64,000 nt of DNA from a virus: positions 1 through 64,000 of IMG/VR virus record IMGVR_UViG_3300023174_005350; one strand, 5' to 3'. A program made the translations under genes and the position numbers. Under the pieces are notes generated by a model, which was given only the letters and a program-made list of their open reading frames with translations, was not told the origin of the DNA and did no database searches. Shown in pieces: positions 1 to 47,313 of this stretch. Position 1 is the first letter of the stretch; the number at the start of each line of letters is the position of its first letter.

Positions 1-29
1 AGATTGACAATCTCCAGATTGACGAGTTG

Positions 30-58
30 TTGCGTTCCCTTCGCAGCTAGGATATAAT
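30..58 (+). promoter_or_regulatory. sigma70-type early promoter, leaderless mRNA
   Basis: TTGCGT-17 nt-TATAAT; ATG 7 nt downstream of -10, no SD. Confidence 0.8.
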
Positions 59-65
59 AACCACC

Positions 66-263
66 ATGACCATCAACGTTAAGAATCGTGACACTGGCAA
101 GCTTGTTTACTGTGGCGATACCATTGTTGGAATCTATAACGAGCCGTGGATTTTTCTTGCTATGTCAAGCCCAATGACAGTGTGGGTTCGTGACCCGATT
201 ACTGGTGCGGTTGTTGACTTTGACCCGTCCACTATGGTAATCGACGTGGACGTGGTAGCCTAA
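66..263 (+). CDS. hypothetical early protein (65 aa)
   Basis: ORF starts at the predicted TSS of the 30-58 promoter. Confidence 0.75.
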   Translation: MTINVKNRDTGKLVYCGDTIVGIYNEPWIFLAMSSPMTVWVRDPITGAVVDFDPSTMVIDVDVVA

Positions 264-273
264 CCTGTAGCCT

Positions 274-345
274 TGGCACGGAGCTTGCACAGCCGCCGCG
301 CCGTAGGCGCGGCTGGCATTATATCATAATAAAAAATAAAAGCAA
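274..345. promoter_or_regulatory. convergent promoter/hairpin element U1
   Basis: + sigma54 consensus TGGCAC-N5-TTGCA (274-289); hairpin GCCGCGCC-GTA-GGCGCGGC (295-313); - strand TTGCTT-16-TATAAT with TG extension (345-318). Confidence 0.75.
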
Positions 346-480
346 GAGAAAAAAACTAATAATGTCCACCCACCCACGGGCAAACGGCGCATGTTAGTCC
401 ATCCAGCAACGGGAGTCAAGGACGAAAAAAAATGCATCCACCCTCTTGCACGCACACGGAAGCGCGTCTATAATAAGGGC

Positions 481-666
481 ATGACCAACCAAACCTGCAA
501 CGGACGGCACACGAAGAACGATGGTTCCTACTGGGTGAACGATGCGCGTGGTATCCCGCTTGCCCGCGTCTGCACCAAGTGCGAGGATGCGAAGCTTGCA
601 AAGTATCGGAAGGACGTTCGCACGAACTCTAACTATTGGGCAGACGAGATTGTTGACGGCGACTAA
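481..666 (+). CDS. small Cys/His-containing early protein (61 aa)
   Basis: TTGCAC(446)-17-TATAAT(469-474) then ATG 6 nt later; true start probably 481 rather than 391; CxxC motif. Confidence 0.75.
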   Translation: MTNQTCNGRHTKNDGSYWVNDARGIPLARVCTKCEDAKLAKYRKDVRTNSNYWADEIVDGD

Positions 667-721
667 GGTTCCAGCGTATAATATCCCGGCAGTTAACCCG
701 TAGCACAAACGAGAGAAAAAA

Positions 722-1024
722 ATGATCATCTTCCGTCGCCTCATCCGTTCCAAGGGTTCTCAGTCCGCGAAGCTTGTCGGTGGACACCGTTTCGCGGTGA
801 ATGTTAAGACGCTGATCGCTCATGCAAAGCAGACCCGTCACGTCTACGCTTTCATTGACGAGAACGGCAACGAAGGGACCATTCGTTCCGGTGTCCTCAT
901 GCGGACGGTTGATAGCCACGTTCGCAACACCCTGACGGTTCAGGATGCGATCCAGCGTCCCTTGCCGTTTTCGGTTGACAACACTCCCGAGGTTGTGATT
1001 CGGAATGGTGTGATTGCAGCCTAG
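722..1024 (+). CDS. hypothetical early protein (100 aa)
   Basis: promoter TTGACG(653)-18-TATAAT(677); leader shared with gene at 1732. Confidence 0.75.
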   Translation: MIIFRRLIRSKGSQSAKLVGGHRFAVNVKTLIAHAKQTRHVYAFIDENGNEGTIRSGVLMRTVDSHVRNTLTVQDAIQRPLPFSVDNTPEVVIRNGVIAA

Positions 1025-1139
1025 TTGACAACCCCTTGGCTCCCGTGCTAGAATAAGGCGGGAGCCTTGGCATAGAGGTTGCAGCCGCCCTTCGGGCGTC
1101 GGCTGGCACGATTATATCATGGGCAAAAGATAAAAGCAA
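1025..1139. promoter_or_regulatory. convergent promoter/hairpin element U2
   Basis: + TTGACA-18-TAGAAT (1025-1054); + sigma54 TGGCAT-N5-TTGCA (1068-1083); hairpin 1082-1105; - TTGCTT-17-TATAAT (1139-1111). Confidence 0.75.
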
Positions 1140-1209
1140 CTAAAAAAAGAAAAAAAGAAAGTGGTTCCACCCCCTTGCAATCGTATGGGAGCGCGCATAT
1201 AATATCGCC

Positions 1210-1377
1210 ATGACCCAGACCGAGTTTCCCTTCCTGAGCAAGATCCGCACCTGCGAGGTTTGCAAGCACTCTTATGTTTCCGTGCTTGTCAACTGGGATC
1301 GTTGCGGAGTGTGCGAGGAAAACGTTAGGAAAGAAAATCTGAAATCAATACTTGCACGCTTCAACGTGAAGGAGTAG
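1210..1377 (+). CDS. Cys4 zinc-finger microprotein (55 aa, absent from ORF track)
   Basis: MTQTEFPFLSKIRTCEVCKH...RCGVCEE; TTGCAA(1175)-17-TATAAT(1198), ATG 6 nt later. Confidence 0.8.
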   Translation: MTQTEFPFLSKIRTCEVCKHSYVSVLVNWDRCGVCEENVRKENLKSILARFNVKE

Positions 1378-1387
1378 AATAACCGCC

Positions 1388-1552
1388 ATGAACAAGCCAA
1401 AGCGAATCAAGATTGTTCTCCAGAAGAAGGCGTGCGTCAAGTGTCTGACGCAATGGCAGACTAGCAATAAGGATAGCAAGGTTTGCCCTTCGTGCGTCAA
1501 TGACCCTTCAACAATCCTCACGCGGTGCCTTGCAAACATTGTGAAGCTGTGA
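1388..1552 (+). CDS. Cys4 zinc-finger microprotein (54 aa, absent from ORF track)
   Basis: MNKPKRIKIVLQKKACVKC...VCPSC; TTGCAC(1352)-17-TAGAAT(1375). Confidence 0.8.
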   Translation: MNKPKRIKIVLQKKACVKCLTQWQTSNKDSKVCPSCVNDPSTILTRCLANIVKL

Positions 1553-1563
1553 GAGAATAAGAC

Positions 1564-1683
1564 ATGATCAAAGCAAAGCGGGTTGGCGGTCTTTACTTCC
1601 TGTCCATCGGTCGTCTCCAGATTTCATTTTGTGTCAAGCGTAAGCCTAGCAAGAAAAAGATGTTGGTCCCTCCGCAGTTCTGA
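1564..1683 (+). CDS. basic microprotein (39 aa, absent from ORF track)
   Basis: MIKAKRVGGLYFLSIGRLQISFCVKRKPSKKKMLVPPQF; TTGCAA(1530)-17-GAGAAT(1553). Confidence 0.6.
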   Translation: MIKAKRVGGLYFLSIGRLQISFCVKRKPSKKKMLVPPQF

Positions 1684-1731
1684 TGTATAATAACCCTCGC
1701 AGTTAACCCGTAGAACGAAAGAGAAAAAACA

Positions 1732-1968
1732 ATGGCTACTTTCCTTGACGTGGCAGAGAAGCTTAACTCCTACAAGCGTTCCAACGGTCAGCGCGTGCTG
1801 TATGTGACCGATGCAGCGATTGTGCTTGACAGTCCGGTAGTGAGCGGTAACGAGGTTGCCGCCGTTATTGAGGGTCAGGTTTGCACGTTCACTCTCGGTG
1901 TCAACTGCTATCGTATGCTCCGCACGCGCCGTGTTGAGACTACTGAAACGTGGACGCTGGACGAGTAA
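1732..1968 (+). CDS. hypothetical early protein (78 aa)
   Basis: TTGGTC(1663)-17-TATAAT(1686); leader shared with gene at 722. Confidence 0.7.
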   Translation: MATFLDVAEKLNSYKRSNGQRVLYVTDAAIVLDSPVVSGNEVAAVIEGQVCTFTLGVNCYRMLRTRRVETTETWTLDE

Positions 1969-1979
1969 GAAAATAAAGC

Positions 1980-2061
1980 TTGACAGCTTGCCGAGTCGGT
2001 GGCATAATAGCCGCCGATTTCGGCGGCTGCATATTATATCATAAGGAAAAGAATAAAGCAA
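1980..2061. promoter_or_regulatory. convergent promoter/hairpin element U3
   Basis: + TTGACA-17-CATAAT (1980-2008); hairpin AGCCGCCG-ATTT-CGGCGGCT; - TTGCTT-17-TATAAT (2061-2033). Confidence 0.8.
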
Positions 2062-2142
2062 TAAAGAAAAGCACGGGAAGATAAGAAAAAAAAGATGTGC
2101 AGGCTCTTGATTCCCGTAGAGATTCCAGCGTATAATATGGGC

Positions 2143-2274
2143 ATGAACGAGAACAACAGCTGGTGCAAGGATTGCGGCACGGAGAAGAACCTTGTCATTT
2201 TCTCCGAGGCTCCGAAGGTTGTCCTTTGCACGGAGTGCGCCATGTGGCGTGACAGCAAGATTGACAAGCGGTAA
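2143..2274 (+). CDS. Cys4 zinc-finger microprotein (43 aa, absent from ORF track)
   Basis: MNENNSWCKDCG...LCTECAMW; TTGATT(2107)-18-TATAAT(2131). Confidence 0.75.
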   Translation: MNENNSWCKDCGTEKNLVIFSEAPKVVLCTECAMWRDSKIDKR

Positions 2275-2296
2275 AAGCGCAAGGTATAATATCACC

Positions 2297-2527
2297 ATGA
2301 CCAACAACAACGGCGTCACCTTCTGCGATGTGTGCGACAACGAGTGCGAGCAGAGCGAGATCTCTGTGCGTGAGGACTTCAACGGTGAGTGCGAGGAAGT
2401 GTGCCGCACCTGCGTGGATCAGGAGAACATGACGGAGGATGAAGTGGACGAGATGAACATGTTGGAGGAGGAGTCTGACGCCGATGTGCGGGAAGATATC
2501 CTCGATATGTACTACAACGAATATTAG
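2297..2527 (+). CDS. Cys4 zinc finger plus highly acidic tail (76 aa)
   Basis: TTGACA(2261)-18-TATAAT(2285), ATG 6 nt later; CDVC...CRTC; D/E-rich C-terminus. Confidence 0.8.
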   Translation: MTNNNGVTFCDVCDNECEQSEISVREDFNGECEEVCRTCVDQENMTEDEVDEMNMLEEESDADVREDILDMYYNEY

Positions 2528-2613
2528 TTGACAGGCGTTGGGGGGTTTGCTATACTAGCCCCCCGCGCCGTAGGCGCGGCTGGCATTATACCCCATGTGT
2601 AGTGGCGAGTCAA
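2528..2613. promoter_or_regulatory. convergent promoter/hairpin element U4
   Basis: + TTGACA-17-TATACT (2528-2556); 28 nt identical to U1 (2563-2590 = 296-323); - TTGACT-17-TATAAT (2613-2585). Confidence 0.8.
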
Positions 2614-2683
2614 GCTAAAAGCGCAGCGTGGAAAAAATAAATAAATGCTTGCGTGTACCCCCGGTTCATGAGAGTATGTGCGT

Positions 2684-3049
2684 ATGACCAACAACAACAT
2701 GACCATCGAGATCCGCGTGGGCGACGAGCTTCAGGAGATTGTTGTGTCCACCAAGTGGGAGATTTGCGAGCGTTGCGAGGGCAACGGCAAGCACGACCCT
2801 GAGTCGTTCTCCAACGGCTTTACCCAGAGCGAGTTCTATGAACTCTTCGACGATGAGGAGGAGCGCGAAAACTATTTCAATGGCAAGCACGATGTTGCGT
2901 GCCGCGAGTGCAACGCCTCGGGCAAGGTGCGCGTGCCTGACCTTAGCTCTCTCACGGACGAGGAGCGCGAGGGCTACGAGCGTGCGCTGGAGGACCGTGC
3001 CGACTACGAGCGGGAGTGCCGCTACGAGCGCCGGTACCTCGGGTACTAG
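2684..3049 (+). CDS. DnaJ-type CxxCxGxG zinc-finger protein, acidic
   Basis: CERCEGNG and CRECNASG motifs; promoter TTGCGT(2649)-17-GAGTAT. Confidence 0.75.
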   Translation: MTNNNMTIEIRVGDELQEIVVSTKWEICERCEGNGKHDPESFSNGFTQSEFYELFDDEEERENYFNGKHDVACRECNASGKVRVPDLSSLTDEEREGYERALEDRADYERECRYERRYLGY

Positions 3050-3109
3050 TTGCCCCTGTCAAGGGGGTGGTGGTTGGCTAAATAAAAAAAATAAAAGCCT
3101 CCCACCCCC

Positions 3110-3205
3110 TTGACGAATATCCACAGGTATGGTAAACTAGCCGCCTCGTTCCTCGGCGGGAGGCTGGGACACCTATATTATATCACGGGTGGATAGGTAG
3201 CGCAA
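3110..3205. promoter_or_regulatory. convergent promoter/hairpin element U5
   Basis: + TTGACG-17-TAAACT (3110-3138); GC-rich imperfect hairpin starting AGCCGCC; - TTGCGC-17-TATAAT (3205-3177). Confidence 0.75.
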
Positions 3206-3281
3206 GAAATAAAAAAAGATATTCCACCACTTGCCCACCACCATCCTATCAAGGTAAGCTAGACACATAGGAGAAAAGATT

Positions 3282-3692
3282 ATGGCGAGCAAAGACTACG
3301 AGAAGAACGATAAGTATTATGCAAAGCTTGAGCAACAGATTGAACAGGTTGCACTTATCATGCATAGGCTTAACAACATGTGGAGCTTCACAGGTTCCCA
3401 GCTGTCCTATGCCTGTGACAACTACATGCGTCCCCGTGACCTTGCCACACTAGAGGAGCGTGTGCATTGCTTGGTGCAGGCTTATGCTGCGCTAACAAAG
3501 AGTGTCACCTTGTATACATCTCAGGGATATGTCCTGCCAGCTTTCTGGGATAGTACGTTTGGCAAGCTAGGACAAGATATAATCTTTACCTTGCCTGAGA
3601 TGCTGCATGTCAAAAAAGAAAAAGCCTTCTATAAAAATTTGATAAAGACCTTCACCCTTGCGTGGGGGGAGTCCCCCTCCCTCCCCCTGTAA
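3282..3692 (+). CDS. hypothetical protein (136 aa)
   Basis: AGGAG SD; promoter TTGCCC(3231)-18-TAAGCT. Confidence 0.7.
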   Translation: MASKDYEKNDKYYAKLEQQIEQVALIMHRLNNMWSFTGSQLSYACDNYMRPRDLATLEERVHCLVQAYAALTKSVTLYTSQGYVLPAFWDSTFGKLGQDIIFTLPEMLHVKKEKAFYKNLIKTFTLAWGESPSLPL

Positions 3693-3780
3693 CGTCCATG
3701 GACCAGAAATATAAGTCTCTATGCTCTTGACAAGCGCGCTAAAAGGTGCCTATGGTCTTAAATATACACGGGACTAAAAA

Positions 3781-4041
3781 ATGAAAAAATTCAAGTTCAA
3801 AATTGGTGATCTCATTGCATGTTATAATGATCCCGATAATTATAAAATAATACTCGGTTGGGTTGTAGACCGTTGGAAAAATAAAAAAGGCGAGAACAAC
3901 TACCATGTACATTGGAGCGATATAGCCGATAATTCGGATTATATACAAACGCCAATAGATGAATATGGCGTAAATGAGTGTTATAATTTACTACAAAAAG
4001 CCATCGAAACGGACACATGGCATGGTAAAAAAATTCTGTAA
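3781..4041 (+). CDS. small beta-barrel (SH3/KOW-like) 'IGDL' family protein
   Basis: FKIGDLIA...LGWVVD...YHVHW. Confidence 0.6.
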   Translation: MKKFKFKIGDLIACYNDPDNYKIILGWVVDRWKNKKGENNYHVHWSDIADNSDYIQTPIDEYGVNECYNLLQKAIETDTWHGKKIL

Positions 4042-4062: not shown

Positions 4063-4326
4063 ATGAAAAAATCAAAGTACAATATAGGTGACTTGGTAGC
4101 AACCTATGTCCAATTTGATGATAAAAATGATATATTATTATTAGGATGGATAGTTAGTAAAAATATATATGTTACTATCAATAATAGAATGACGTGGATA
4201 TATGATATAGAATGGGCCGATGGTGAGCAGGAGGATGAAGTAGAAGAAGATGTTGTATATAATGTTATAAAGGCATTTCGGGAAGCAAAGCGCTATAAGC
4301 GTTGGACCCGAAGTAAATGGACATGA
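4063..4326 (+). CDS. small beta-barrel 'IGDL' family protein
   Basis: YNIGDLVA...LGWIVS...YDIEW. Confidence 0.6.
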   Translation: MKKSKYNIGDLVATYVQFDDKNDILLLGWIVSKNIYVTINNRMTWIYDIEWADGEQEDEVEEDVVYNVIKAFREAKRYKRWTRSKWT

Positions 4327-5042
4327 TATATACGGAAGATGAAATAAAAAAACGATGTGTAGAATTAGTGAACGGACCCCCTCTGCCGGTGCTTGGCAAG
4401 GGGGATAAACGTTTTGGCATGACGCTAGAGAGGTATATGAATATCGATATAAACTCTCGCGTAACAAGCGATATTGAAAGTCTTGATTTAGAAATAAAAG
4501 CAAAAATAAAAAAAGAAACAGACCTAACGCTTTTTTCAACAAAACCTGCTTTTCTACGCTTGAATAGCGATGAATTCTTTCGTATTCATAACAAATTAAA
4601 AGATAACACTGAATCCTTGTACACGGACGTAGGCGGCGGCGTGAACTCATTTGGTTTGCAAATAAGCATCCAACAGACTGCTGAAGATATAGAAATGATT
4701 ATCTATGATGCTGAACGGAATATAAATCGCGCTTCAATCAACTTTGGTCACATTAAACATATAGCAAAAATGAAAATGCGAAACCTCTTGGTCGCCTACG
4801 GCGACAGATTGGAGGTTGCGGGCGTCGAACATGTCCGGTTTGATTCAGTTCATATCCACCAAAATTTGAATTTGACGAACGAAAAGATTCGTGACTTTCT
4901 ACTTAATAATAAGATGGTTTATTCTTTCAGACAGCGGAAGCGTCATGGTAAATACAAAGACCATGGTAGTGCATTCCGTTTGACGGATCCAAAATATTTG
5001 AAAGAATTGTATAGCAGTTATGAAGAGATACAACGTAAATGA
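4317..5042 (+). CDS. MvaI/BcnI-family restriction endonuclease-like protein
   Basis: GxTLE...N..D...EIK...TLFSxxP and C-terminal DHGSAFRL motifs. Confidence 0.7.
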   Translation: MDMIYTEDEIKKRCVELVNGPPLPVLGKGDKRFGMTLERYMNIDINSRVTSDIESLDLEIKAKIKKETDLTLFSTKPAFLRLNSDEFFRIHNKLKDNTESLYTDVGGGVNSFGLQISIQQTAEDIEMIIYDAERNINRASINFGHIKHIAKMKMRNLLVAYGDRLEVAGVEHVRFDSVHIHQNLNLTNEKIRDFLLNNKMVYSFRQRKRHGKYKDHGSAFRLTDPKYLKELYSSYEEIQRK

Positions 5043-8443: not shown

Positions 8444-8466
8444 AGCGCGGCGTTGCCGCGCTTTTT
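8444..8466 (+). terminator. intrinsic terminator
   Basis: AGCGCGGC-GTT-GCCGCGCT followed by T-tract. Confidence 0.85.
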
Positions 8467-45507: not shown

Positions 45508-47313
45508 ATGGCAAAAAAAATCGTACCTATTAAATATACCAGCAGAGACTATGAAAGTATTAGAAATGATCTAATACAGCACGCTAAAAGATACTATCCA
45601 GAAACTTATAAAGACTTCAGCGAAGCATCTTTTGGTTCTCTAATGGTTGATACGGTAGCTTATGTAGGAGATATTTTATCTTTTTATTTAGATTATCAAG
45701 CAAATGAATCTTTTTTAGATACTGCATCTGAATTTAATAATATATTAAAGCTAGGCAGACAAACTGGCTATAAATTTTCTAATTCTAATTCATCTACCGG
45801 TATAGCTTCGTTTTATATATCTATTCCTGCAAATTCATCTGGTTTAGGGCCAAATATGGATTATGCCCCAATTCTTAAAAAAGGTAGCACTTTTAGTACC
45901 AATACAGCCGTCAGCTTTATATTAAATGAAGATGTGCGTTTTGATGATCCAAGAAATGAAATAAGAGTATTAAAAGTGGACGTTGATACAGGCACTCCAA
46001 TATTTTATGCTATAAAAGCAAAGGGTTCCGTTATATCTGGTGTTATAGGGGTAGAAAAAATACAAATTGGAGCTTATGAAAGATTTAAAAAAATAGCCTT
46101 GCAGCAATTAGATATTATAGAAATATTATCCGTATTTGATAACGAAGGTAATGAATATTACGAAGTGGATTATCTATCACAAAACATAATTTATAAATCT
46201 ATACCAAATAACAATATTCAAGAGTCTGGAATGGCAAAAGAAATTTTGAAACCATATTTAGTCCCAAGACGTTTCGTAGTAGATAATACGTTAAGAGAAA
46301 CCAGTTTGCAATTCGGCGCTAGCTCAGATCAGATTGTTCAAGATGATATGTCCATGATTGCAGAGCCAACTAATGTGGTATTAAATTTATTTGGTAAAGA
46401 ATATATTTCTAGTGATTCATTCGATCCAACAAGATTATTAAATAGTGATAAGTTTGGTGTTGGTCCTTCTGATACTACTTTAACTATTACTTATAGATAT
46501 AAAGATAGTAATACTCAAGTAAACTTTGCTGCTAATTCATTAACTAGAGTCAATAAAGCAGATTTATTATTTACCGATGAACAAAGTTTAAATGCAACAT
46601 TAAAAAATTCTATCATTAACAGTGTTGAAATCAATAATGATTCTCCGCTGTTAGGCGACAATACAGTTATAGACTCGGATGAGTTAAAAAGAAGAATAGA
46701 GAATGCTTTTGCATCACAAAATAGAGCAGTTACAGAAGCAGATTATAAGTCATTAACATACTTAATGCCACAAAAATTTGGTGCAATTAAAAGAGTAGCA
46801 GTAAAAAAAGATATTAATTCTCCAAGAAGAAATTTGAATCTTTATCTACTATGCGAAGGCTCAGACGGTTATCTAACTTCACCAAATCAATCAGTAAAAA
46901 ATAATTTAAAGACTTGGTTAGATAAAAATAGAATGATTAATGATACAATTGATATATTAGATGGTAAAGTGGTTAATTATGCTATAAATTTCGCGGCTGT
47001 TGGTTCTAGCAATAGGTCTAAATATGACATTTTAACTGATGCGATAAATCAAATAAAAATTGATTTTGCAACATTACCTGATTTTGGCGAACAATTTACG
47101 ATAACTAATGTTTACGATAGTTTAAAAAAAGTAGATGGCTTAATTGATGTAACATCCGTAACAATCGAAGAAAGAGTCGGCGGTCTATATTCAGACGCAC
47201 AATTTAATTTTAAAGCTTATACATCGCCAGATAATAGATATATTAAAGTACCTGATAACGTAATAATGGAATTAAAATATCCTAATAGTAATATTAAAGG
47301 AACTATTTTGTAA
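45508..47313 (+). CDS. baseplate wedge protein, gp6-like
   Basis: YTSRDYESI...DFSEAS.G..AYVGD.LSFY.D; QNRAVT..DY. Confidence 0.85.
   Translation: MAKKIVPIKYTSRDYESIRNDLIQHAKRYYPETYKDFSEASFGSLMVDTVAYVGDILSFYLDYQANESFLDTASEFNNILKLGRQTGYKFSNSNSSTGIASFYISIPANSSGLGPNMDYAPILKKGSTFSTNTAVSFILNEDVRFDDPRNEIRVLKVDVDTGTPIFYAIKAKGSVISGVIGVEKIQIGAYERFKKIALQQLDIIEILSVFDNEGNEYYEVDYLSQNIIYKSIPNNNIQESGMAKEILKPYLVPRRFVVDNTLRETSLQFGASSDQIVQDDMSMIAEPTNVVLNLFGKEYISSDSFDPTRLLNSDKFGVGPSDTTLTITYRYKDSNTQVNFAANSLTRVNKADLLFTDEQSLNATLKNSIINSVEINNDSPLLGDNTVIDSDELKRRIENAFASQNRAVTEADYKSLTYLMPQKFGAIKRVAVKKDINSPRRNLNLYLLCEGSDGYLTSPNQSVKNNLKTWLDKNRMINDTIDILDGKVVNYAINFAAVGSSNRSKYDILTDAINQIKIDFATLPDFGEQFTITNVYDSLKKVDGLIDVTSVTIEERVGGLYSDAQFNFKAYTSPDNRYIKVPDNVIMELKYPNSNIKGTIL

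What the first reader, a model, noticed from the sequence alone, without database searches (positions are those of the whole stretch)
274..1083. Consensus sigma54 (-24/-12) sites fill the forward-promoter slot in two elements
Seen: TGGCACGGAGCTTGCA (274-289) and TGGCATAGAGGTTGCA (1068-1083), both preceded by AGCCT, both with exact GG-N10-GC spacing, directly before the hairpin where U3-U5 have a sigma70 -10. Established: sigma54 holoenzyme forms stable closed complexes that cannot fire without an enhancer-binding ATPase. Inference: these sites could be sinks for sigma54-RNAP, so the elements would target two host holoenzymes. They also point to a sigma54-reliant host.
Basis: partly seen in the sequence, partly recalled or inferred. 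Interest (0 to 1): 0.75.

Follow-up and report, generated by a model that had tools for sequence, protein, structure and literature searches.

The report
Sigma-54 boxes in phage early cassettes
Two textbook docking sites for the bacterial sigma-54 RNA polymerase sit in the repeated control cassettes between the first genes of an uncultured lake phage; relatives keep them under clear selection, so the phage probably engages this unusual host enzyme, but the host and the purpose are unknown.

Summary
TGGCACGGAGCTTGCA (274-289) and TGGCATAGAGGTTGCA (1068-1083) are the only exact sigma-54 consensus matches in the 75-kb record (0.07 expected). Each abuts a GC hairpin, in the position where three sister cassettes carry a sigma-70 -10 box.

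Relatives make the sites more than chance. Five related IMG/VR contigs and 18 metagenome contigs carry the same box, giving 15 different 16-mers in about 24 distinct hairpin-adjacent contexts. All are on the gene strand and all lie in the early region. TTGGCA and TTGCA are invariant while the bases between them vary. That is the constraint expected of a two-part -24/-12 site.

The elements are a variant of the PeSL promoter/stem-loop cassettes of T4-type phages, and this phage is a distant T4-type myovirus.

The "sink" idea is plausible but untested:
- No activator gene and no sigma-54 gene were found in the phage records.
- No RNA data exist.
- The host is unknown. Pelagibacteraceae, the only host lead, lack sigma-54 in 0 of 81 genomes searched.

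This scan has already noted similar sigma-54 boxes in early cassettes of other lake phages. I found no paper describing them. Phage YuA is the only published phage sigma-54-type promoter I found.

The parts
274..289 (+). Sigma-54-type box of cassette U1 (TGGCAC-N5-TTGCA). If read as a promoter, the predicted start is near 300.
   Evidence: The orthologous box in L018, L030, L025 and L039 has different N5 bases.
292..317 (.). GC hairpin of U1: 11 pairs, one bulged T, loop GTAG.
   Evidence: The loop and some stem bases differ in relatives, and pairing is kept.
318..345 (-). Reverse-facing extended -10 sigma-70-type promoter of U1 (TTGCTT, 16 nt, TGATATAAT). It aims into the hairpin and the box, with a predicted start near 311.
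   Evidence: The same element follows nearly every cassette hairpin in relatives.
1025..1054 (+). Sigma-70-type promoter TTGACA-18-TAGAAT of U2, 13 nt upstream of the box.
   Evidence: It is conserved in all 12 type-B variants.
1038..1066 (.). Inverted repeat that encloses the TAGAAT -10 box of U2.
   Evidence: Four different stem sequences in relatives all keep complementarity.
1068..1083 (+). Sigma-54-type box of cassette U2 (TGGCAT-N5-TTGCA). If read as a promoter, the predicted start is near 1094.
   Evidence: Twelve orthologous variants keep CTTGGCA and TTGCA unchanged while the Y and the first four N positions vary.
1082..1105 (.). GC hairpin of U2 (CAGCC/GGCTG and GCCC/GGGC with a 3-nt bulge). 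Its first pair uses the C of the -12 GC.
   Evidence: The 25-nt core is identical in 18 metagenome contigs.
1111..1139 (-). Reverse-facing extended -10 promoter of U2 (TTGCTT, 17 nt, TGATATAAT), with a predicted start near 1104.
450..666 (+). Gene served by cassette U1: its own promoter TTGCAC-N13-TATAAT (13-nt spacer, not 17) and a leaderless 61-aa zinc-finger ORF (ATG 481).
1175..1377 (+). Gene served by cassette U2: promoter TTGCAA-17-TATAAT and a leaderless 55-aa zinc-ribbon ORF (ATG 1210).
1980..2041 (.). Sister cassette U3: forward sigma-70 promoter (TTGACA-17-CATAAT) in the slot, hairpin 2009-2028, reverse TGATATAAT 2033-2041.
2528..2613 (.). Sister cassette U4: forward TTGACA-17-TATACT, hairpin 2563-2579, reverse TTGACT-17-TATAAT.
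3110..3212 (.). Sister cassette U5: forward TTGACG-17-TAAACT, weak hairpin, reverse TGATATAAT 3177-3185.

Best explanation
The two sites are genuine, selectively kept binding sites of the sigma-54 (-24/-12) class. They are built into a variant of the PeSL promoter/stem-loop cassettes that separate the small early genes of T4-type phages.

Each cassette has this order:
1. The stop codon of the upstream gene.
2. A forward slot holding an RNA-polymerase site whose downstream edge abuts a GC hairpin.
3. The hairpin.
4. A strong sigma-70 promoter facing back into the hairpin.
5. An A-rich stretch.
6. The next gene's own promoter and leaderless start codon.

In U3-U5 the slot holds a sigma-70 promoter. 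In U1 and U2, and in most cassettes of relatives, it holds a sigma-54 box.

I infer that host sigma-54 holoenzyme docks there as a closed complex. The DNA it would have to melt (-10 to +3) is the GC stem. No activator gene or conserved activator site is visible. A convergent promoter starts about 10 bp from the predicted start. For these reasons I think the docked enzyme is mostly parked. It would act as a boundary block against read-through and antisense transcription, and would incidentally tie up a scarce host factor. It would fire only if a host activator acts from solution.

Shown: the motif, its slot, its strand bias and its pattern of conservation.
For: Motif and chance:
- There are two exact matches against 0.07 expected, and none elsewhere in 75 kb.
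- In five relatives' whole records the motif is confined to the early region. 17 of 19 hits are on the gene strand, and the reversed control gives 0.

Conservation:
- About 24 distinct hairpin-adjacent contexts hold 15 different 16-mers, in at least four different upstream contexts.
- I collected type-B cassettes by their hairpin alone, not by the box. All 12 variants keep CTTGGCA and TTGCA, while the Y and the first four N positions take 2-4 different bases.
- Positions outside my search pattern also fit the extended consensus as I recall it: T before TGGCA in all hairpin-adjacent copies, and mostly G then a purine after TGGCAY.

Slot equivalence:
- The same position holds a sigma-70 -10 box in sister cassettes.

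Cassette context:
- The phage is T4-type: gp6-like wedge, gp25, a gp55-like factor and TATAAATA-type late promoters.
- Genes between cassettes are replaced or inserted relative to L018, as described for PeSLs (PMC2839356, PMC4122927).

Literature:
- Sigma-54 holoenzyme binds promoters in an inactive state (PMC4591121 abstract).
- A phage sigma-54-like promoter is on record for YuA (PMC10914365).
- Sigma-54 was found in 110 of 121 sampled Pseudomonadota genomes.
Against: - The host is unknown, so the presence of rpoN is untested.
- The only host lead is Pelagibacteraceae (47% identity, weak). None of 81 genomes of that family searched has the sigma-54 DNA-binding domain.
- Actinomycetota and nearly all Cyanobacteria, which are common lake hosts, also lack rpoN (PMC12316311).
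- No enhancer-binding ATPase and no sigma-54 gene were found in six phage records. All are incomplete: CheckV estimates 9-65%.
- No RNA run holds the region, so no transcription start is known.
- The two nearest cultured phages have no such motif.
- One relative carries the box inverted in the same slot (L017 2550-2565). That fits docking but not a promoter.
- Parking, the boundary role and the sink role rest on geometry alone.
Confidence: 0.55

Rival explanations
1. The boxes are ordinary enhancer-dependent sigma-54 promoters. A host activator, possibly one that works without a nearby binding site, fires them. The downstream early gene then gets a second, condition-dependent transcript with a long A-rich leader, which couples part of the early programme to host physiology.
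For: - All hairpin-adjacent boxes but one point with the genes.
- A gene lies 190 nt (U1) or 125 nt (U2) downstream.
- The slot otherwise holds a sense sigma-70 promoter.
- Phage YuA has a mapped sigma-54-like promoter (PMC10914365).
Against: - No conserved upstream activator site is visible. The sequence upstream of the box differs between cassette types and is coding in U1.
- No activator gene is present.
- The region to be melted is a run of G-C pairs, and the start would fall inside the hairpin.
- A consensus extended -10 promoter fires head-on from about 10 bp away.
- Each downstream gene already has its own consensus promoter and is leaderless.
Confidence: 0.2
2. The bipartite motif is read by some other DNA-binding protein. 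It could be a phage early protein, for example one of the many zinc-finger microproteins, or a host regulator that binds two direct half-sites one helical turn apart (TKGCA-N6-TKGCA). On this view the likeness to sigma-54 is coincidental and the host may lack rpoN.
For: - The two halves are similar (TGGCA and TTGCA) and 11 bp apart.
- The host lead and several abundant lake lineages lack sigma-54 (PMC12316311).
- The early region encodes many small zinc-binding proteins of unknown function.
- The box plus GCCGCC-hairpin composite is specific to this clade in IMG/VR. It occurs in 66 contigs against 43 for the reversed control, and the non-clade hits have no hairpin.
Against: - The match covers every specified position of the sigma-54 consensus TGGCAC-N5-TTGC(A/T) (PMC12316311), and also the flanking preferences.
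- The box occupies a slot otherwise filled by an RNA-polymerase site.
- No candidate reader has been identified.
Confidence: 0.15
3. The conserved letters act in RNA, not DNA. They would form a single-stranded linker next to a stabilising or terminating hairpin, either at the 3' end of the upstream mRNA or in the antisense RNA made from the reverse promoter.
For: - The hairpins carry stable RNA-type loops such as UUCG, and the pairing covaries.
- In U2 the box lies between two hairpins.
- The antisense-strand folds are more stable than shuffles, with z of -2.3 and -2.7.
Against: - Boxes also occur where there is no reverse promoter (type D: L017 3346, L019 1495) and where there is no upstream hairpin.
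- The interior five bases vary freely, which is unlike a pairing seed.
- In sister cassettes the same RNA position is a sigma-70 promoter with no shared RNA feature.
- There is no Rfam match.
Confidence: 0.06
4. The boxes have no function. They are passengers in cassettes that spread by recombination, or chance matches in GC-rich DNA.
For: - The cassettes are clearly mobile and mosaic.
- GC-rich coding sequence in the same region throws up look-alike boxes through codon constraints (window 549-564; L019 4043 and 1739).
Against: - A passenger would keep or lose all its bases alike. Here the specified bases are invariant and the unspecified ones vary, within flanks that are otherwise identical.
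- The box recurs in four unrelated upstream contexts.
- Chance expectation is 0.07 per window.
Confidence: 0.04

Closest known systems
Bacterial sigma-54 (RpoN) -24/-12 promoters and silent sigma-54 binding sites (E. coli genome-wide maps, PMC4591121; cross-phylum consensus, PMC12316311)
   Same: - The two-part sequence is the same: TGGCAC-N5-TTGC(A/T) with fixed GG/GC spacing and a free spacer.
- Holoenzyme is known to sit on such sites without firing.
- Many mapped sites have no obvious gene to drive.
   Different: - These sites are in a phage, inside repeated intergenic cassettes.
- They are fused at -12 to -8 to a GC hairpin and face a convergent sigma-70 promoter about 10 bp from the predicted start.
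- No activator or upstream activator site is visible.
PeSL (promoter-early stem-loop) cassettes of T4-type phages RB49, phi1, PST and nt-1 (PMC2839356, PMC4122927)
   Same: - They occur in a T4-type phage, in a hyperplastic region of tiny orphan genes.
- They are composite repeats of consensus early promoters, an AT-rich tract and a GC stem-loop lying between one gene's stop and the next gene's start.
- Genes are swapped or inserted at cassette boundaries.
   Different: - Published PeSLs have only sigma-70-like promoters, with the stem-loop between or over the -35 and -10 boxes and a Shine-Dalgarno site.
- Here the stem-loop follows the promoter, and a second promoter faces backwards.
- The genes are leaderless.
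- The slot often holds a sigma-54 box.
Sigma-54-like promoter of Pseudomonas phage YuA (Ceyssens et al. 2008, as cited and re-mapped in PMC10914365)
   Same: It is a phage site with the host sigma-54 promoter motif.
   Different: - YuA has a single mapped promoter that drives genes, in a siphovirus of a known rpoN-carrying host.
- Here there are repeated boxes in boundary cassettes, with no transcript evidence and an unknown host.
Face-to-face overlapping promoter pairs such as IS10 pIN/pOUT and the P2/186 switch promoters (my own knowledge, not checked here)
   Same: Two polymerase sites point at each other at close range, so occupancy or firing of one interferes with the other.
   Different: - Those pairs are both sigma-70 sites, and each drives a gene or a regulatory RNA.
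- Here the predicted starts are only about 10 bp apart across a hairpin, and one partner may be a non-firing sigma-54 complex.

Membership tests
Sigma-54-dependent (-24/-12) promoter | TGGCAC-N5-TTGC(A/T), with GG and GC 10 nt apart | tested here: met
   both sites match every specified position.
Sigma-54-dependent (-24/-12) promoter | The -24 and -12 elements and their spacing are conserved in homologues while the spacer varies | tested here: met
   15 different 16-mers, with invariant TTGGCA and TTGCA.
Sigma-54-dependent (-24/-12) promoter | The host encodes sigma-54 (rpoN) | not testable with these tools
   The host is unknown. The weak Pelagibacteraceae lead has 0 of 81 genomes with the domain. 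In sampled Pseudomonadota it is 110 of 121.
Sigma-54-dependent (-24/-12) promoter | A cognate enhancer-binding AAA+ activator and an upstream activator site | tested here: not met
   There is no PF00158 match in six phage records. There is no conserved sequence upstream of the box across cassette types. A host activator acting from solution cannot be excluded.
Sigma-54-dependent (-24/-12) promoter | Transcription starts about 12 nt after the GC, and a gene is transcribed | not testable with these tools
   No RNA run holds the region. Orientation with the genes is met. The predicted start lies inside the hairpin.
PeSL cassette of T4-type phages | The carrier is a T4-type myovirus | tested here: met
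   The phage has a gp6-like wedge, gp25, a weak gp55-like match and TATAAATA-like sequences before late genes. It is very distant: 30-32% identity to cultured phages.
PeSL cassette of T4-type phages | A repeated intergenic composite of a consensus sigma-70 early promoter, an AT-rich tract and a GC stem-loop, among small orphan genes | tested here: met
PeSL cassette of T4-type phages | Gene gain, loss or replacement at cassette boundaries between close relatives | tested here: met
   relative to the window, L018 has replaced genes at 1228-1374 and 2309-2503, and an inserted gene plus sigma-54 cassette.
PeSL cassette of T4-type phages | The stem-loop lies between or over the -35 and -10 boxes, and a Shine-Dalgarno site precedes the start codon | tested here: not met
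   The stem-loop follows the slot promoter, and the genes start 6-7 nt after their own -10 box. I therefore call this a variant, not a member in the strict published sense.

The most novel reading that the evidence does not exclude
The box-plus-hairpin unit is a purpose-built trap for host sigma-54 holoenzyme. The inverted repeat begins at -12 to -8, exactly where sigma-54 grips the nascent fork. An extruded or breathing hairpin would mimic the early-melted junction and lock the enzyme in place.

A few sites per genome, multiplied by phage replication, would then soak up a factor present at only about a hundred copies per cell. This would silence sigma-54-dependent stress and repair responses. 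At the same time the locked complexes would insulate neighbouring early cassettes from each other.
Probability: 0.15. Interest if true: 0.85.

Novelty: new variant of a known kind. Interest (0 to 1): 0.6.

Why it matters
Sigma-54 is the one bacterial sigma factor that binds DNA tightly yet cannot start transcription unaided. Phage use of it is almost undocumented. I found one mapped promoter, in phage YuA.

If these boxes are read by sigma-54, a widespread group of lake phages has written this enzyme into the modular cassettes that organise their early genes. It could serve as a conditional switch, a protein roadblock or a sponge for a scarce host factor.

The boxes would also give a sequence-only clue to the host of an uncultured phage: rpoN present. 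That rules out Actinomycetota, nearly all Cyanobacteria and the Pelagibacteraceae genomes searched here.

The claim is cheap to test, because sigma-54 holoenzyme from model bacteria recognises the same consensus.

Tried and rejected
Searches that gave nothing or little:
- DNA searches of the early region and of 20 kb of the body against 50,697 phage records found no match.
- An exact 27-mer of the U1/U4 hairpin had no hit in IMG/VR.
- A hairpin-end plus reverse -10 pattern gave 15 contigs, of which only five are real relatives.
- RNA evidence: no RNA holder listed.
- Rfam gave only two sub-threshold chance hits.
- The IMG/VR-wide composite (box plus GCCGCC) gave 66 contigs against 43 for the reversed control. 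None of the non-clade hits has a perfect stem of 6 or more pairs after the box. The composite is therefore clade-specific, not a general viral motif.

Host identification attempts:
- The GDP-mannose dehydratase gave only two Pelagibacteraceae hits at 47% identity, which is too distant to assign a host.
- tRNA-Ala found nothing in 61 Pelagibacteraceae genomes.
- No psbA was found in five records.
- Early proteins hit no phage, or only Serratia phage Parlo at 47% over 60% of the query.
- The nearest cultured phages, Microcystis phage Mel-JY01 and Flavobacterium phage immuto, lack the motif.

Readings considered and dropped:
- TTGGCA or TTGCA as -35 hexamers: no -10 box lies 16-18 nt downstream.
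- A nut-like boxA/boxB site: the loops vary freely.

Method notes:
- My first hairpin-anchored frequency table was muddled by off-register words and bulged stems, and I did not use it.
I stopped that form of the step and recomputed the column variability from the stored loci by coordinates.
Full report
**What is there.** The window is the first 64 kb of a 75-kb linear IMG/VR virus record. Bases 1-3700 are about 50% G+C and the rest is about 30%. The GC-rich part is packed with tiny genes, several of them zinc-finger or zinc-ribbon proteins. Most start 6-7 nt after a consensus TATAAT, so they are leaderless, and each has its own TTGACA-type promoter.

Five repeated intergenic elements (U1-U5) lie between some of these genes. 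In + strand order, each has:
- a forward promoter-like site;
- a GC hairpin;
- the complement of a consensus extended -10 promoter, TGATATAAT preceded by TTGCTT at 16-17 nt, which is a strong promoter pointing back into the hairpin;
- an A-rich stretch.

**Check of the observation.** TGGCACGGAGCTTGCA (274-289) and TGGCATAGAGGTTGCA (1068-1083) are present as described.
- The pattern TGGCAY-N5-TTGCW has only these two matches on both strands of the window, against 0.07 expected from shuffles.
- There are none elsewhere in the 75-kb record.
- Allowing one mismatch adds two sites at chance level.
- Both boxes abut the hairpin. In U1 the stem begins 3 nt after the box. In U2 the C of the -12 GC is already the first paired base.
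- In the alignment of the five elements the boxes occupy the place where U3-U5 have an extended -10 box next to the hairpin.

**Relatives.**
- A 136-aa early protein led to three related viral contigs.
- A DNA pattern from the cassette found two more.
- The 25-nt hairpin core of U2 found 18 metagenome contigs from several lake and estuary projects.
- In the whole records of five relatives the motif occurs 2-7 times. It is confined to the early region, 17 of 19 hits are on the gene strand, and the reversed control pattern gives zero.
- Across all loci there are 31 distinct contexts with an exact box. About 24 of them abut a GC hairpin, all on the gene strand, and they hold 15 different 16-mers.
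- The remaining exact boxes lie in coding sequence. There a CxxCAK or RGIPLA codon string happens to spell the motif. I regard those as chance.

**The decisive comparison.** I collected type-B (U2-like) cassettes by their hairpin core only, so the box was not part of the selection.
- All 12 distinct variants carry CTTGGCAY-N5-TTGCA directly against the hairpin.
- Column by column, CTTGGCA and TTGCA are invariant. The Y and the first four N positions take two to four different bases.
- The neighbouring sigma-70 promoter shows the same signature: fixed hexamers and a variable spacer.
- The box also recurs in at least four unrelated upstream contexts:
  - after direct GTAGCC repeats;
  - after the sigma-70 promoter whose -10 box sits in the loop of a covarying inverted repeat;
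  - after coding sequence;
  - in cassettes that lack the reverse promoter.
- This pattern fits a protein that contacts two patches one helical turn apart. It does not fit a passenger sequence or a base-pairing RNA seed.

**What occupies the slot.** I took a census anchored on GC hairpins. The position just upstream on the gene strand holds one of four things:
- a sigma-54 box, perfect or with one mismatch in the TT of the -12 element;
- a sigma-70 promoter whose -10 box ends 2 nt before the stem;
- in two cases, a TTGAC hexamer;
- in one relative, the box in inverted orientation (L017 2550-2565).

The slot is thus always filled by an RNA-polymerase-type site. This is the strongest internal argument that the box is read at the DNA level by a polymerase holoenzyme.

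**What kind of phage and element.**
- The 601-aa protein at 45508-47313 is a gp6-type baseplate wedge. It is 32% identical to Microcystis phage Mel-JY01 and 30% to Flavobacterium phage immuto.
- A gp25 domain, a weak gp55-like late sigma match and TATAAATA-like sequences before late genes fit a distant T4-type myovirus.
- T4-type phages are known to carry PeSL cassettes. These are consensus sigma-70 early promoters plus a GC stem-loop plus an AT-rich tract, lying between small orphan genes, and they mediate modular shuffling (PMC2839356, PMC4122927).
- The cassettes here match that description and that behaviour. Against the 89%-identical relative L018, genes between cassettes are replaced, and one gene plus a sigma-54 cassette is inserted.
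- They differ from published PeSLs in four ways: the stem-loop follows the promoter, a second promoter faces backwards, the genes are leaderless, and the slot often holds a sigma-54 box. I therefore call them a variant of the PeSL kind.
I read the papers myself.

**Who reads the box.**
- The sequence equals the sigma-54 consensus as stated in PMC12316311. It also shows the flanking preferences I recall from the classical compilation (my own knowledge).
- Sigma-54 holoenzyme is known to bind such sites in an inactive state (PMC4591121 abstract).
- A sigma-54-like promoter has been mapped in phage YuA (PMC10914365).
- Against this, no sigma-54 gene and no PF00158 activator are found in six incomplete phage records.
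- No conserved activator site is visible upstream.
- No RNA data exist.

**The host.**
- The host is unknown.
- By my own knowledge, the consensus TTGACA/TATAAT early promoters argue against a Bacteroidota host, whose main sigma factor reads a different motif.
- Actinomycetota and nearly all Cyanobacteria lack rpoN (PMC12316311).
- The one host lead I obtained is a GDP-mannose dehydratase whose only seeded genomic relatives are two Pelagibacteraceae, at 47% identity.
- None of 81 Pelagibacteraceae genomes searched has the sigma-54 DNA-binding domain. In contrast, 110 of 121 sampled Pseudomonadota genomes have it.
- That lead is weak. The identity is low, the phage tRNA-Ala finds nothing in 61 genomes of the family, and no psbA is present either.
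- So the boxes predict an rpoN-carrying host. They do not show one.

**How it most likely works.**
- If the box were a promoter, the start would fall near 300 (U1) and 1094 (U2), inside the hairpin. The -10 to +3 segment that must melt is almost pure G-C.
- The reverse promoter's predicted start is near 311 and 1104. This is about 10 bp away on the other strand.
- The footprints of the two enzymes would therefore meet at the -12 element.
- Each downstream gene already has its own promoter.
- The phage uses ordinary U-tract terminators elsewhere, for example 8444-8462. Terminator-like sites number 20 against 8 expected in 6-25 kb. The early cassettes therefore use a different boundary design on purpose.
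- I infer that the slot's job is met by a bound polymerase rather than by its transcript.
- A sigma-54 closed complex is stable and silent. It would block antisense transcription from the reverse promoter and read-through from upstream.
- In U2 it would also compete with the overlapping sigma-70 promoter.
- A sink effect on a low-copy factor is conceivable once the genome replicates (inference; copy number from my own knowledge).
- A conditional promoter fired by a host activator from solution remains a serious rival. The near-uniform sense orientation favours it.
- I put 0.55 on sigma-54 docking that is mostly parked, 0.2 on a true enhancer-dependent promoter, 0.15 on another reader, 0.06 on an RNA-level role and 0.04 on no function.

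**Breadth and novelty.**
- The exact composite (box plus GCCGCC stem) is specific to this clade in IMG/VR. It gives 66 contigs against 43 for a reversed control, and the non-clade hits have no hairpin.
- Earlier notes of this scan report sigma-54 boxes beside other hairpins in early cassettes of several other lake phages. So the scan has seen this kind of thing before on other DNA. Those notes are leads, not evidence.
- In the papers I could search I found PeSLs with sigma-70 promoters only, and one phage sigma-54-like promoter.
- I rate the finding as a new variant of known kinds. Interest is moderate to high, because binding can be tested directly with standard sigma-54 holoenzyme.

Noticed in passing
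window 1-3700 versus 3700-64000: The early region is about 50% G+C inside a 30% G+C genome. The change is sharp, near 3700-4000. The cassettes and tiny leaderless genes are confined to the GC-rich part.
   Followed up: partly
window 4317-5042 (+): The first gene after the GC-rich island encodes an MvaI/BcnI-family restriction endonuclease (Pfam E 5e-16). The GC-rich island itself contains CCSGG sites, so the phage DNA may be modified or otherwise protected.
   Followed up: no
window 1038-1066, and type-B cassettes in L017, L019, L025, L040: An inverted repeat encloses the TAGAAT -10 box of the sigma-70 promoter. Four different stem sequences in relatives all keep complementarity. This points to a selected structure whose level, DNA or sense RNA, is unclear.
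   Followed up: partly
L017 2550-2565 (+), in the same slot as a type-B box: One relative carries the box inverted (TGGCAC-N5-TTGCG on the antisense strand), with its TGGCA end against the hairpin. This fits docking better than a promoter.
   Followed up: partly
L026 995-1010: Here a slot sigma-70 promoter (TTGACA-17-TATGCT) also spells a near-consensus sigma-54 box (TGGCAT-N5-ATGCT). It could be a transitional form or chance.
   Followed up: no
window 549-564; L019 4043-4058 and 1724-1739: Sigma-54 look-alike words occur inside the zinc-finger genes. They are produced by conserved codons (RGIPLA; CNECAK on the other strand) and should not be counted as sites.
   Followed up: yes
window 1 and L018 1: The window's contig and the 119-kb relative both begin at the same base. 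In a third relative the early region lies mid-contig, with more cassettes upstream. The shared start may be an assembly break at a repeat or a physical end.
   Followed up: no
window 8444-8462 (+): A canonical intrinsic terminator, a GC stem followed by TTTTATTT, lies in the AT-rich part. The same element is present in relatives. It contrasts with the U-tract-less hairpins of the early cassettes.
   Followed up: partly
window 424-448, 1153-1177, 3088-3112: Each gene promoter is preceded by an A-run and a CCACCC(C/T)C word that runs into the -35 TTG (families D1 and D3). This is a further conserved module of the cassette, of unknown role.
   Followed up: no
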